Shown here: positions 3,001-6,000 of the stretch, piece by piece
How the letters are laid out: each line of letters starts with the position of its first letter
How positions within the stretch are numbered: the first letter of the stretch is position 1
DNA from: a virus
DNA: 16,685 nucleotides
Direction: 5' to 3' (one strand)
Virus genome (UHGV): UHGV-0176901
Position numbers: made by a program

Positions 3001-6000
3001 GTAGCTTGTCGGAGCTGATCGCCTCCTGACTTTGCAGATTTGCACGACGAGCTCTACGGCGAGAAGCTGCGGTTCCTTTAAATTCTGTTTTTCTGGACAT
3101 AGATTCCTCCCGAATAAACTTTGGCGATGCAATCTCGAAGCCCCTCCTGAGACGGTTGCTTCGGCATTGCATCCCACAGCTTATGTGGTTGGGTGATCTG
3201 GCTTTTCAGCCACGTAGTCGAGTGTTCGACGTTGTTTAAAGAGCCTGCCAGTCTGTTCCGTTTGGCTTCCAGCTTCCTGCTGATGACTAAATAGTACGGG
3301 ACGTAGTTGATTAAGTCAACACAAACACTCTAAATGTGGTTAGTTTTTTTATAACTCTATGTATTTTATTGATTTATATTTTGGGAAAGAAAGTTGGCGC
3401 CAAGTTTTCACCAAAAGTGGTGAAATCCCTAAACCCTGTAGCCCGTCAAGAAGCTGGCCCGTGGTGCAGGAGATTCACTAGGGGTAGTGCAGGAGATTCA
3501 CTAGGGGTAGTGCAGGAGATTCACTAGGGGTAGTGCAGGAGATTCACCACCCTGGTGCAGGAGATTCACTAGGGGGTGGTGCAGGAGCTGCACCCAGAAC
3601 CAGTCACTCTTTTGAACCAGTCAATGAACCTAAAAACATTATGTTCGAACATGTCCGAACAGAGTGTGAAAAAACTCCTGACCGTCACGAAGAAACCGAC
3701 AAGGCATTCGAGGAAATATTCTGGTGTGCAGGCATGCGGAAAGCCGGTCTCGGCAACCATTAGTTACGTCAATGGCGTTTAAACGCCATAGGAAGCGCTG
3801 TAGAGAGATAAACAACTGTCAGACATTAAAATGTACGTGTGGGCGTAAATATTGCGTCAGAATGCGATTCAGGAGGTTTGGGGTTGGTTCACCAGGATTT
3901 GGAGTGTGGTATTTTTGCTTGCATTAAAAATGCACGAGATGTACTATAATAGCGTGGTTACCAATGTTGGGAAGGAAATATGAACAACCTTAAGAAATAT
4001 CGAAAGTCAGTGAGCATCAGTCAAACAATACTTGCTAAGGCAGTTGGATGCACACAGGGGGCTGTCGGTCATTGGGAAAGTGGTCGTCGCATGCCAGATC
4101 TTAAAACATGCCGTGCTCTCGTTGCTTACCTGAACAAGTTAGGCGCAAATGTAAGTCTTGATGACGTGTTCCCGCCGGAACACAAAGCCGCTTAATAAGC
4201 GGGACTGCTCTTTGTAACAACGGACATTCGTCCTACGTCGCTGAAAAGCGAGTTCCAAGATATCTGACCAACTAAGGCTATATGCGTTTCCACGCATACC
4301 TTTCAACTAACTATTCACTATTGGTGAATTAACAAATGACACAAGCAAGTTACAGCAAGCCAACACAGCGAGAAATTGATCGCGCAGAAACTGATTTACT
4401 CATCAACCTGTCAACGCTTACCCAGCGCGGTCTGGCAAAGATGATTGGCTGTCATGAATAGAAAGCACAAATTACAGGAGAAGACACAATGAGTATGATT
4501 CTGATTGAGAAAGCAATGAGAACTAAGGTTGGGAACCCGCGAAGAAAACTGATTCTGCTTAAACTTGCCGATAACGCCAATGACAATGGCGAATGCTGGT
4601 TTTCATATCAAGATCTCGCTTATCAGTGCGATATTAGCAGATCGACAGTAATTGGTCACATTTTAGCACTGGAAAAGACTGGGGTTTTGAATTTGGAGCC
4701 AGGAAGTAACCAGCCGAAGTTTGCTCGCCTGATGCTTAAATAAGCATTAACAAACACAACCAATTGGAGGTGAAAAAATGAGTATGATTCTGATGGTGAA
4801 GGCAATGGGAGCCAAAGTTGGAAACCCGCTCAGAAAACTGGTTCTGCTTAAACTTGCCGATAACGCCAATGACAATGGCGAATGCTGGCCTTCATATCAG
4901 CATATCGCTGACCAGTGCGAGATTAGCAAACGCTCCGTGATTAACCATATTGAGGCTCTTTGTGAGGCTGGCTTGCTAAAAAAAGTCACCCGAAAAGGTG
5001 AAAAAGGCAACTCAAGTAATATCTATATTCTTCGGCTTGGGGGTGCAGGAGATTCACTAGGGGTAGTGCAGGAGATTCACCACCCTGGTGCAGGAGATTC
5101 ACTAGGGGGTGGTGCAGGAGCTGCACCCAGAACCAGTCACTCTTTTGAACCAGTCAATGAACCTAAAAACATTATGTTCGAACATGTCCGAACAGAGTGT
5201 GAAAAAACTCCTGACCGTCACGAAGAAACCGACAAGGCATTCGAGGAAATATTCTGGTGTGCAGGCATGCGGAAAGCCGGGAAGAAAAACGCAGCTTCAG
5301 CATTCAGAACACAGTTCAGGGAATGGCGTAAAACTACAAGGGGTACGGCAAGCGAGTTTGCCACGATGCTGGCAGAAGACATCGCATGCAGGAGTGGTAA
5401 GCAGTTCGGATTCGACAGGTTGTTACCATCGAGCTACCTGAACGGTCAACGCTGGAACGACGAGAAGCCAGAAACTATTCAACCACAATCCAAACCATCA
5501 TCCGCAATCACCGTATCGAAAACTGGCTACGTGTTTTTCGACAGGTGAACCATGAAATCAAAAATCAAATCGCTACTGGTCGCTGGTTATAACCACGGCT
5601 GGTTAAGTATTTCGTTTGTCGATTTCTGGTTTAAAAATCTCAATCCGAGGGAATCATGAGGCCAAGTGAACTCAGCGACCTGCTTTGGGCGCAGGTTGAC
5701 AGGGTGGCTCCGCACCTGTTGCCAAACGGCAAGAAAGAGGGGCATGAGTGGGTTGCCGGTAACGTCAACGGTGACAAGGGAAACAGCCTTAAGGTCAACC
5801 TTAGCGGCAAGAAAAAATGGGCTGATTTCGCTGAGGGAGACGGCGGTGACATGCTTGATTTGTGGATGGCATGTCGTGGAATTAACCTGCATCAGGCTAT
5901 GCAGGAAGCGAAAGCATTTCTCGGAATCAAGGATGACGATCACCATTTCGATGCCAAACGTGAGAAGAAATTCTCCAGACCTGACCGCAAGAAAATCGCC

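What the first reader, a model, noticed from the sequence alone, without database searches (positions are those of the whole stretch)
3797..3885. Diverged copy of the ninB-upstream junction sits just after the orphan ori
The roughly 85 bp upstream of ninB (8672..8757, ending in CGTCAGAATGCGATTaAGGAGGTTT plus GTG) has a paralog at 3797..3885 (CGTCAGAATGCGATTcAGGAGGTTT) with the same flanking CTGTAG-GAGATAAACA motif, but no ninB-like ORF follows it. With the orphan ori, the block 3462..3885 looks like a collapsed copy of a replication module (O-internal to ninB-upstream, with everything between deleted) inserted where cI should be. The shared junction may be a conserved module boundary used for homologous exchange between lambdoid phages.
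Basis: seen in the sequence. Interest (0 to 1): 0.5.

Follow-up and report, generated by a model that had tools for sequence, protein, structure and literature searches.

The report
Relic replication-gene leader beside orphan origin
The sequence is a real but probably inert leftover: the leader that normally precedes a phage primase gene, carried with a spare replication origin into the place where the repressor gene cI used to be, in a lambda/P22-like phage that has lost its lysogeny genes.

Summary
3768-3885 and 8642-8757 are 69% identical in the same order. No shuffle of 1000 matched the score, with or without the ribosome-binding site.

The interpretation needs correcting. Copy A (3749-3886) is closer to the spacer between gene O and the toprim primase gene in related phages (77-80%). 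It is one of a rare family of about 115-nt leaders that end in TCAGAATGCGATTnAGGAGG plus a start codon. These leaders sit upstream of toprim, ninB or a DUF7301 gene.

The orphan block is the origin iterons plus mid-O, then a 364-bp deletion, then this leader. It ends where the primase ATG would be. It replaces cI, PRM and OR3 between PL and PR. Three independent metagenome assemblies span it, so it is not an artefact. The lineage also has a truncated cII, and no integrase is called beside the tailspike.

I found no promoter, Rfam match or conserved RNA structure in A. The most likely reading is a recombination scar. The module-boundary idea is partly supported: one chimeric leader, and a clean presence/absence difference within 96-98% identical flanks. 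But the family is rare. The common boundary is the 55-nt terminator segment at 8563-8620.

The parts
3291..3319 (-). PL promoter (TTGACT-17-TACTAT). It lies inside the retained nutL/PL/OL region 3180-3394.
   Evidence: Promoter scan. Homology to the annotated VT2-Sakai PL/operator region and to the E. coli MMC-J prophage.
3395..3460 (.). Filler of unknown origin at the left junction. It starts where homology to intact immunity regions ends.
   Evidence: No significant match in the phage collection or the fetched loci. Alignment to L075 loses homology after about 3394.
3464..3587 (+). Orphan origin iterons. There are six GTGCAGGAGATTCAC cores at a 23-bp period. The resident origin has four.
   Evidence: TRF. 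Core positions. Repeat family D4. The copy number is 5 in L065 and L067.
3510..3747 (+). Exact 238-bp copy of the O-internal segment 5043-5280. It holds four iterons, the adjoining unwinding region and mid-O coding sequence. The O reading frame (ORF 3533-3763) ends at the TAG inherited from the small ORF.
   Evidence: D1, 100% identity. 95% identity to O of L034. Translation.
3749..3886 (+). Copy A, a leader of the O-toprim ('pri-up') subtype. Its features are the last codons and TAG of the small ORF (3749-3763), the palindrome ATGGCGTTTAAACGCCAT (3772-3789), CTGTAGAGAGATAAACA (3798-3814), the core CGTCAGAATGCGATT (3855-3869), the SD AGGAGG (3871-3876), and a TTG (3884-3886) where the start codon would be.
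3887..3905 (.). Short unassigned stretch between copy A and the retained OR2'/PR region. It may be the diverged first codons of a primase gene, but this is not demonstrable.
   Evidence: No match. Alignments to VT2-Sakai and L075 regain homology at about 3906-3909.
3919..3947 (+). PR (TTGCAT-17-TACTAT) with the remaining right-hand operators. It drives cro (3980-4195).
   Evidence: Positional homology to the annotated VT2-Sakai PR at 12170-12198. cro has an HTH_3 domain.
4336..4461 (+). Truncated cII (41 codons). Homology to cII ends at 4463 in every comparison.
   Evidence: PHROG 191, profile positions 1-37 of 106. BLAST end points.
4489..4743 (+). O' fragment of 84 aa. It is the N-terminal winged-helix domain of a different O allele (about 80% DNA identity to the 5' end of the resident O).
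   Evidence: D3. PHROGs and Pfam HTH_36. No closer full-length allele among phage records.
4778..5548 (+). Resident replication initiator O, with the resident origin iterons at 5042-5120.
5552..5659 (+). 35-codon ORF whose TGA overlaps the toprim ATG (ATGA). This is the 'type I' junction, which lacks the leader.
   Evidence: Sequence. In L034 a 137-nt stretch that includes the leader replaces window 5642-5655, within flanks 96-98% identical.
5656..8562 (+). Toprim primase/helicase (968 aa) carrying an intein at about nt 6769-7792.
   Evidence: Pfam Toprim_2, LAGLIDADG_3, Hom_end_hint. The 1024-bp segment is absent from L035, L038, L040, L005 and L064.
8563..8620 (+). Widely conserved segment after the replication genes, with an intrinsic terminator (hairpin 8593-8612 followed by a T run).
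   Evidence: Terminator scan. The first 55-66 nt of the query match 1983 of 5426 E. coli genomes downstream of various genes, including ren, DnaB-like helicase and toprim genes.
8642..8757 (+). Copy B, a leader of the ninB-upstream subtype, ending in AGGAGG-N7-GTG. The GTG is the ninB start; ninB is 8755-9201.
   Evidence: NinB identified by PHROG 72.

Best explanation
Copy A is the 3' end of a truncated, displaced piece of a lambdoid replication module. The piece is the origin iterons, then the middle of gene O, then a 364-bp deletion, then the leader that in related phages lies between O (with its small ORF) and the toprim primase gene. It stops where the primase start codon would be.

This roughly 510-bp block (3395-3905) replaced cI, PRM and OR3 between PL and PR. 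The phage is a P22/lambda-like lineage that has also lost most of cII and shows no integrase in the stretch sequenced beside the tailspike. I read it as a lytic descendant of a temperate phage.

Inferred origin: a segment running from PR to the primase leader was duplicated or captured, which created the new joint leader|OR2'-PR. Deletions then trimmed it. Exchange with the resident origin kept the 238-bp origin part identical to the resident copy.

In its present place A most likely does nothing. In its native places the leader family supplies the 5' leader and Shine-Dalgarno for the first gene after the small ORF (toprim) or after the post-replication terminator (ninB or DUF7301). Its two invariant blocks are long enough to serve as patches for homologous exchange.

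Shown: the homology, the break points, the arrangement in several assemblies, and the absence of cI. Inferred: the order of events, the lytic lifestyle, and the lack of function.
For: 1. A is a pri-up leader.
- It is 80% identical over 131 bp to the O-toprim spacer of E. coli FDAARGOS_943, and 76-78% to RMDEC465 and phiKp_30.
- It matches the pri-up subtype at most distinguishing sites.
- It is 69% identical to copy B.

2. The break points are defined.
- Window 3553-3747 matches L034 6442-6636, and window 3749-3878 matches L034 7001-7129. That is a 364-bp gap, with the match ending 5 nt before the toprim ATG at 7135.

3. cI is missing between retained PL and PR.

4. The arrangement is real.
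- Three contigs from different samples, named in two different assembler styles, span both junctions: the window, L065 (internal to a 40,877-bp contig) and L067.
- A is 100% identical in all three, and the iteron number is 6 or 5.
- Other contigs break at the repeat.

5. Lysogeny genes are lost.
- cII is truncated.
- In L067 the tailspike gene is followed directly by early-left genes, with no integrase called.
- phiKp_30 shows an independent cI deletion.

6. No function signal was found in A.
- No sigma-70-like promoter on either strand.
- No Rfam hit, even at E<=10.
- The fold is no better than shuffles (z=+0.09), whereas native pri-up leaders give z=-2.7 and -2.9.
- Three of the nine pairs of the predicted helix that sequesters the SD in the pri-up subgroup are broken in A.

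7. There is evidence for exchange at the leader.
- The L038 leader has a ninB-type 5' part and a DUF7301-type 3' part.
- The presence/absence polymorphism lies in 96-98% identical flanks.
Against: - A is not uniformly decayed. Against L034 it keeps two perfect runs, 23 nt (the palindrome) and 28 nt (the core plus part of the SD). The rest is about 57% identical. This suggests constraint for most of its history, or conversion patches.
- A keeps a perfect AGGAGG and a TTG at the same 7-nt spacing as the ninB GTG. A residual role cannot be excluded.
- The resident module lacks the leader. The origin part is 100% identical to the resident O, but the leader is only 77-80% identical to any known leader. 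The history therefore needs an unsampled donor allele plus gene conversion, or later replacement of the resident junction.
- No intermediate structure was found.
- The fillers 3395-3460 and 3887-3905 are unexplained.
- The contigs that carry the block are about 99% identical overall, so conservation of A among them says nothing about selection.
Confidence: 0.7

Rival explanations
1. The block is a replication module collapsed all the way from O-internal to the ninB-upstream junction. A would then be a hybrid, made by recombination between the two direct leader copies that flank the primase gene, with loss of the primase gene.
For: In phiKp_30 and L006 the primase gene is flanked by direct pri-up and ninB-up copies. 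The 23-24 nt 3856/3857-3879 are 100% identical to the ninB-up leaders of phiKp_30 and L006. Directly after the core, A reads AGGAGGT like the ninB and DUF7301 types, not AGGACGG like the pri-up type.
Against: Only two distinguishing bases support the hybrid. They also make a consensus SD, so they could be ancestral or convergent. Most of the 24-nt identity is the core, which is invariant across the family. Nothing that resembles ninB follows the TTG. The whole 5' 110 nt is of the pri-up type.
Confidence: 0.15
2. The block was retained because the orphan origin works. It could be a second initiation site lying between the divergent promoters PL and PR, or an array that titrates O protein and tunes replication. 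In this reading A is only a passenger. This is compatible with the scar origin.
For: The orphan holds every base of the resident origin from the first iteron to 5280, plus two extra iterons. It is present in all sampled members of the lineage, some at high coverage: multi 414 and cov 295 in the contig names. The iteron number varies while the array persists. Ectopic lambda origin copies supplied in trans do affect phage replication (PMC4488673, PMC3349717). The point that divergent transcription favours unwinding comes from general knowledge, not from a test here.
Against: The members are about 99% identical overall, so persistence is not evidence of selection. No replication data exist. In the cited work extra origin copies inhibit the phage rather than help it. 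Transcription across the orphan is not predicted.
Confidence: 0.2
3. The leader family is a cis-regulatory RNA. One possibility is a device that couples primase translation to the upstream small ORF by sequestering the SD. In this reading A is still an active member.
For: Native pri-up leaders fold better than shuffles (z=-2.7 and -2.9), with a closing helix that pairs the region just after the small-ORF stop codon with the SD region. In the pri-up subgroup the consensus fold has three hairpins plus a helix that sequesters the SD, and several changes are G-C to G-U. In genomes without the leader, the small ORF overlaps the primase ATG directly (ATGA), which is also a form of coupling.
Against: The family as a whole has no consensus structure (0 pairs). 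No pair in the pri-up subgroup shows a compensatory change. There is no Rfam match. A itself folds no better than chance and breaks three of the nine pairs of the SD-sequestering helix. A has no gene downstream and no predicted promoter upstream.
Confidence: 0.1
4. The copies are insertions of a small mobile element (MITE-like).
For: There is a clean presence/absence difference in nearly identical flanks, and copies occur in several contexts.
Against: By direct comparison of the type I and type II junction sequences, I saw no terminal inverted repeats and no target duplication at the boundary. Every copy has the same orientation and abuts a start codon with its own SD. Copies in different contexts are only 62-69% identical. 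The replaced segment extends into the first codons of the primase gene. This is the pattern of a mosaic joint, not of transposition.
Confidence: 0.04
5. The block is an assembly artefact caused by the 238-bp repeat, or the similarity is due to chance.
For: The window is a single metagenome contig. Several related contigs end in the iterons.
Against: Two further contigs from other samples, one of them with MEGAHIT-style naming, pass through both junctions with identical sequence. Short contigs cover exactly the unique stretch between the two repeat copies. Shuffle tests exclude chance.
Confidence: 0.02

Closest known systems
Short conserved boundary ('linker') sequences at gene junctions of lambdoid phages (Susskind & Botstein 1978; Clark et al. 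2001, HK620), as summarised in PMC3029335
   Same: It is a conserved non-coding stretch exactly at gene boundaries. Different genes lie downstream of it: toprim, ninB, DUF7301, or nothing. One leader is chimeric, and there is a replacement-type polymorphism inside otherwise near-identical DNA. All of this is compatible with homologous exchange at the conserved patches.
   Different: It is about 115 nt long and has internal variable regions. It is rare: 2 and 4 of 5426 E. coli genomes, and no enterobacterial hit among GTDB species representatives with the core pattern. Two copies can flank one gene in the same genome. I could not read the original papers, so I cannot say whether this particular sequence was among those described.
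The lambda-type origin inside gene O (iterons bound by the O N-terminal domain, next to an unwinding region), and ectopic origin copies that interfere with lambda replication (PMC4488673, PMC3349717)
   Same: The orphan array has the same iterons and the same adjoining 150 bp as the resident origin of this phage.
   Different: It lies outside an intact O gene, between PL and PR, in cis on the phage genome, and has two extra iterons. The published ectopic copies were on plasmids, acted in trans and were inhibitory.
Virulent or clear-plaque derivatives of temperate lambdoid/P22-like phages that have lost the repressor gene, for example Klebsiella phage phiKp_30 (LC768498)
   Same: cI is lost while PL, PR and cro are kept. 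The same O/toprim replication module and the same leader family are present.
   Different: phiKp_30 keeps a remnant of the cI N-terminus and has no origin fragment at the deletion site. In the window lineage the gap is filled by a replication-module fragment.
Lambda dv-type circles and tandem duplications of the PR-cro-cII-O-P segment (cited from general knowledge, not tested here)
   Same: The new joint, end of a replication-gene leader fused to OR2'/PR, is the kind of joint such a circle or tandem repeat would create. The order origin fragment | PR-cro-cII' | O' is a circular permutation of the normal order.
   Different: No intact duplicated unit and no intermediate structure was found. The pieces come from at least two O alleles.

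Membership tests
Has AAAATCGATTTTAAG in place of the ATGGCGTTTAAACGCCAT palindrome. Carries subtype-specific bases through the body. | tested here: not met
   A has the pri-up palindrome and the small-ORF stop codon context, and matches pri-up at most distinguishing sites. Only the two sites directly after the core are ninB-like.
O-toprim ('pri-up') leader subtype | Begins with the last codons and TAG of the 35-codon ORF. Has the palindrome ATGGCGTTTAAACGCCAT, then GCGCTGTAG, then AAATATTGCGTCAGAATGCGATTCAGGA. | tested here: met
   All four blocks are present at 3749-3875. Identity is 80% over 131 bp to L034.
O-toprim ('pri-up') leader subtype | Followed by the toprim primase gene. | tested here: not met
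   PR and cro follow A. The resident toprim gene at 5656 has no leader.
Lambdoid boundary/linker sequence | Conserved sequence at a gene boundary, with alternative genes on one side in different phages. | tested here: met
   toprim (L001-L006, L034, L035), ninB (window, L001, L006, L037, L040, L047) and DUF7301 (L002, L004, L038, L039, L041 and others).
Lambdoid boundary/linker sequence | Recombinant joints fall inside it. | tested here: inconclusive
   There is one clear chimera (L038) and a replacement polymorphism. The hybrid status of A rests on two bases.
Lambdoid boundary/linker sequence | Common among lambdoid phages. | tested here: not met
   2 of 5426 (pri-up) and 4 of 5426 (ninB/DUF7301 type at >=80% coverage) E. 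coli genomes. In the phage collection, 1 record matched query A and 2 matched query B. 5 IMG/VR contigs. Only chance hits in species-representative genomes.
Lambda-type replication origin | Array of at least four iterons with the adjoining unwinding region. | tested here: met
   Six cores at 3464-3587. 3510-3747 is identical to the resident origin region.
Lambda-type replication origin | Embedded in an intact initiator gene, and shown to fire. | tested here: not met
   The O frame is a 76-codon remnant (3533-3763). Origin firing cannot be tested with these tools.
Described RNA family (Rfam) or structured cis-regulatory RNA | Match to a covariance model, or a conserved structure supported by compensatory changes. 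| tested here: not met
   No Rfam match for A at E<=10. For B the only match was a group II intron model at E=2.1. The family consensus has 0 pairs. The pri-up subgroup has 28 predicted pairs but no compensatory change.
Sigma-70 promoter | -35 and -10 hexamers at 16-18 nt spacing. | tested here: not met
   No site inside 3749-3886 or 8642-8757 on either strand.
MITE-like mobile element | Terminal inverted repeats and target-site duplication. | tested here: not met
   Comparing the type I and type II junctions shows a segment replacement that reaches into the first primase codons, with no repeats at the ends.

The most novel reading that the evidence does not exclude
A phage lineage that gave up lysogeny keeps a complete second copy of its replication origin between the divergent early promoters PL and PR. 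That copy acts as an extra or better-activated initiation site, or as an O-protein sink that sets replication timing. Separately, the associated leader family could be an undescribed translational-coupling RNA for the primase and ninB genes.
Probability: 0.12. Interest if true: 0.55.

Novelty: new member of a known kind. Interest (0 to 1): 0.3.

Why it matters
This is a well-documented example of how lambdoid genomes are rebuilt. A repressor gene is replaced by debris from the replication module. The joints fall at gene boundaries. A leader is shared by three unrelated genes.

It gives a concrete, rare sequence family with which the old linker hypothesis can be examined. It also shows that the truly common junction in this region is the terminator segment after the replication genes.

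The practical value is modest. It flags a lytic, cI-less P22-like lineage seen at high coverage in metagenome assemblies from several samples. It also warns that the 238-bp origin repeat breaks assemblies of these phages, and of the phiKp_30 record.

Tried and rejected
- **Rfam.** I searched at gathering thresholds over the whole window and at E<=10 on both elements. Nothing useful came back.
- **RNA consensus folding.** The whole family gave no pairs (one row of that call had wrong coordinates). The two subgroups gave no convincing covariation.
- **Promoter scans.** No promoter in A or B.
- **Scan of species-representative genomes with the 20-nt core.** Only chance hits in unrelated phyla.
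- **Search for the A-specific junction in IMG/VR.** No match.
- **Search for the donor of the fillers 3395-3460 and 3887-3905.** No match.
- **Search for a full-length allele of the O' fragment.** The aim was to test whether it and the orphan block came from one gene. The best hit was 68.6% over 70 aa, which is uninformative.
- **Fetching the rest of the 40.9-kb genome through a common pRha protein.** This returned other phages.
- **O-protein binding site idea.** By eye, the core shares GATTCA and CAGGAG with the iterons. I rejected the idea because phiKp_30 has different iterons but the same core.
- **Upstream ATG inside the core as a leader peptide.** Rejected. It has no SD, and its frame and length differ in every subtype.
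- **LexA, CRP, DnaA and IHF motifs.** I looked for these by eye and found none.
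Full report
**Observation.** CTGTAGnGAGATAAACA lies at 3798-3814 and 8670-8686. CGTCAGAATGCGATT lies at 3855-3869 and 8726-8740. The spacing between the two motifs is 57 nt in one copy and 56 nt in the other. The repeat finder lists 3848-3886 and 8719-8757 as a pair at 82% identity. A local alignment of 3749-3885 with 8620-8757 scores far above 1000 dinucleotide shuffles: none of the 1000 reached it. The result is the same after the AGGAGG region is removed. With only the part upstream of the 15-nt core, 1 of 1000 shuffles reached the score. 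The similarity is therefore more than a generic ribosome-binding site. It runs for about 115 nt, with 84 of 122 aligned columns identical (69%). Nothing resembling ninB follows copy A. The position of the ninB GTG is a TTG (3884-3886) that opens a 21-codon frame running through PR.

**What copy A is.** The closest relatives of 3749-3878 are not ninB-upstream sequences. They are the spacer between the initiator gene O (plus a 35-codon ORF) and the toprim primase/helicase gene in a few related phages. Identity is 80% over 131 bp to a prophage of E. coli FDAARGOS_943 (L034). It is 76-78% to E. coli RMDEC465 (L035) and to Klebsiella phage phiKp_30 (L001). It is 75-77% to the IMG/VR contigs L005 and L006. 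Against L034, window 3553-3747 matches 6442-6636 inside O, and window 3749-3878 matches 7001-7129. The second match ends 5 nt before the toprim ATG. The orphan block is therefore O-internal sequence, a 364-bp deletion, and then the O-toprim leader. It is not O-internal sequence joined to the ninB junction.

**Which subtype A belongs to.** At sites that distinguish the two subtypes, A follows the O-toprim type through its body. This includes the perfect palindrome ATGGCGTTTAAACGCCAT at 3772-3789 and the stop codon of the small ORF. Only the two bases directly after the core (AGGAGGT, against AGGACGG) are of the ninB type. Those two bases leave a small chance that A is a hybrid made by recombination between the direct leader copies that flank the primase gene in phiKp_30 and L006. 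They could equally be ancestral.

**The leader family.** I collected 22 distinct copies from phage records, E. coli genomes, IMG/VR and metagenomes. They fall into three subtypes:
- upstream of toprim;
- upstream of ninB;
- upstream of a DUF7301 gene.

All have the same orientation. All share the blocks AAT.G.TTTAA, CTGT.G.G, TAA.C and TCAGAATGCG(A/T)TT.AGGAGG, followed after about 7 nt by the start codon. A family HMM finds only A and B in the window. The family is rare:
- 2 of 5426 complete E. coli genomes carry the toprim type;
- 4 of 5426 carry the ninB or DUF7301 types at full length;
- in the phage collection, one record (phiKp_30) matched query A, and phiKp_30 plus one Stx1a-converting phage matched query B;
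- five IMG/VR contigs carry it;
- the core pattern gave only chance hits in species-representative genomes.

By contrast, the 55-66 nt directly after the primase stop codon (8563-8620) hold an intrinsic terminator. This segment occurs in 1983 of 5426 E. coli genomes, downstream of several different genes, including ren, DnaB-like helicase and toprim genes. That segment is the common junction here.

**Context.** The window is an entire metagenome contig (ERZ1034973 NODE_1092). Reading left to right it carries the following:
- N (2828-3172, minus strand);
- nutL, PL and OL, up to about 3394;
- the inserted block 3395-3905;
- the remainder of OR2, PR and cro (3906-4195);
- nutR;
- a cII cut to 41 codons;
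- an 84-aa N-terminal fragment of a different O allele;
- the resident O, with four iterons;
- a 35-codon ORF whose stop codon overlaps the toprim ATG;
- the toprim gene;
- the conserved terminator;
- leader B and ninB.

The block holds 66 nt of unknown origin, six iterons, and 238 bp identical to 5043-5280. After these come the junction, leader A, and about 20 unassigned bases. In VT2-Sakai and in an E. coli prophage with similar PL and PR regions, the corresponding interval holds cI and PRM.

**Not an artefact.** Two other contigs from other samples pass through both junctions with identical sequence. One (L065) is an internal part of a 40,877-bp contig with MEGAHIT-style naming and flag 3, which to my knowledge marks a standalone loop. 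The other is L067. They differ from the window only in iteron number, 5 against 6, and in a few bases. Other contigs stop in the iterons, or cover exactly the unique stretch between the two repeat copies, as expected for a real 238-bp repeat. In L067 the tailspike gene is followed directly by early-left genes with no integrase called. Together with the missing cI and the truncated cII, this points to a lytic descendant of a temperate P22/lambda-like phage. That is an inference, because I could not read the whole genome. phiKp_30, isolated on Klebsiella, has lost cI independently. It keeps a remnant of the cI N-terminus, has no origin fragment there, and its record is broken at its own iterons.

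**Origin of the block (inference).** The joint between the end of a primase leader and OR2'/PR is what a duplicated or circularised PR-to-leader segment would produce. The order origin fragment | PR-cro-cII' | O' is a circular permutation of the normal order. Deletions would then have removed cI and the left copy up to the iterons, and also the 364 bp. Two facts complicate this. First, the resident O-toprim junction lacks the leader. It is the 'type I' form, also seen in L038, L040 and L064. The 'type II' form has 137 nt, including the leader, in place of 14 nt, inside flanks that are 96-98% identical. Second, the origin part of the block is 100% identical to the resident O in the window and in L068, and 95-97% in L065, L067 and L069. 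Leader A, however, is only 77-80% identical to any known leader. The history therefore needs an unsampled donor allele plus exchange between the two origin copies, or later replacement of the resident junction. I found no intermediate.

**Function tests on A and on the family.**
- No sigma-70-like promoter lies in A or B on either strand.
- Rfam gives nothing for A at E<=10. For B it gives only a chance-level match to a group II intron model.
- The family as a whole has no consensus RNA structure.
- Within the toprim subtype the consensus fold has three hairpins and a helix that pairs GUCUGA with the SD region. No pair shows a compensatory change, and A breaks three of the nine pairs of that helix.
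- Native toprim leaders fold better than shuffles (z=-2.7 and -2.9). Their closing helix joins the bases just after the small-ORF stop codon to the SD region. A folds at z=+0.09 and B at z=-0.4.

This suggests, but does not show, that the native leader couples primase translation to the small ORF. In genomes without the leader, the ATGA overlap does this directly. I saw no terminal repeats or target duplications, so a mobile-element reading is unlikely.

One observation argues against simple decay. Against L034, A keeps two perfect runs of 23 and 28 nt, the palindrome and the core, while the rest is about 57% identical. A therefore diverged under the family's usual constraints, or was patched by conversion, before or after its capture.

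**The module-boundary idea.** The proposal that short conserved boundary sequences allow homologous exchange between lambdoid phages goes back to Susskind and Botstein, and to Clark and colleagues, as summarised in PMC3029335. This family fits in three ways. It lies at gene boundaries. Three unrelated genes follow it. One leader (L038) has the ninB-type 5' part joined to the DUF7301-type 3' part and gene. It does not fit in being rare.

**Verdict.** The best explanation is a recombination scar: a displaced, truncated replication-module fragment whose last part is an O-toprim leader, a paralog of the ninB leader, with no present function (confidence about 0.7). The main open alternative concerns the block rather than A: that the complete orphan origin between PL and PR is used. 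Published work shows that extra lambda origin copies supplied in trans interfere with replication (PMC4488673, PMC3349717). A copy in cis would therefore not necessarily be neutral. The finding is a new member of a known kind, namely mosaic joints and boundary sequences in lambdoid phages. Interest is modest.

Noticed in passing
window 6769-7792 (inside the toprim gene 5656-8562): The primase/helicase carries an intein of about 342 aa with a LAGLIDADG homing-endonuclease domain. The 1024-bp segment is present in the window, L034, L001, L002 and L006. It is cleanly absent from L035, L038, L040, L005 and L064. Its presence is independent of whether the leader is present.
   Followed up: partly
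window 4336-4743: cII is cut to 41 codons and joined to the 5' UTR and first ~70 codons of a second, diverged O allele. The resulting 84-aa ORF has an intact HTH_36 domain. This exact protein occurs on 11 related contigs. A free-standing O DNA-binding domain could interfere with other phages' origins, but this was not tested.
   Followed up: partly
window 8563-8620: The 55-66 nt after the primase stop codon, including the terminator hairpin 8593-8612, are 90-98% conserved in 1983 of 5426 complete E. coli genomes. They follow several different genes, including ren, DnaB-like helicase and toprim genes. This is a much more general module junction than the leader.
   Followed up: partly
window 1-882 vs 10675-12860: Several inverted repeats link the left end of the contig to the nin region: 1-58 vs 12803-12860 (98%), 776-808 vs 12312-12344 (94%), 348-456 vs 12387-12495 (80%) and 463-708 vs 10675-10920 (72%). 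These are paralogous ORF6N/ANT/pRha antirepressor-like genes in opposite orientation on either side of the early region. The contig end falls inside one of them.
   Followed up: no
L001/L063 (Klebsiella phage phiKp_30, LC768498.2): The record is labelled as a complete 33.7-kb genome, but it is broken inside its own origin iterons, so gene O is split between the two ends. It has also lost cI: only the N-terminal codons remain between PL and cro.
   Followed up: partly
window 3464-3587 vs L065 7004-7106, L067 7001-7105 and L069 3-83: The number of orphan iterons and their spacer sequences differ between otherwise ~99% identical genomes (6 vs 5 copies; ACTAGGGGTA vs ACCAGGGTG). In the window and L068 the orphan and resident arrays are identical. 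In L065, L067 and L069 they are 95-97% identical. This suggests ongoing slippage or conversion, or assembler smoothing.
   Followed up: partly
window 1156-2220 (minus strand): A 354-aa ORF has many imperfect 12-18-nt repeats (families D2 and D5). Similar phage records call it TolA-like. It has no Pfam domain.
   Followed up: no
window 3436-3457: Just left of the orphan iterons, CCTGTAGCCCGTCAAGAAGC contains CCTGTAGC and CGTCA-GAA, which echo the two leader motifs. Neither the motif search nor the family HMM picks it up, so it is probably chance.
   Followed up: partly
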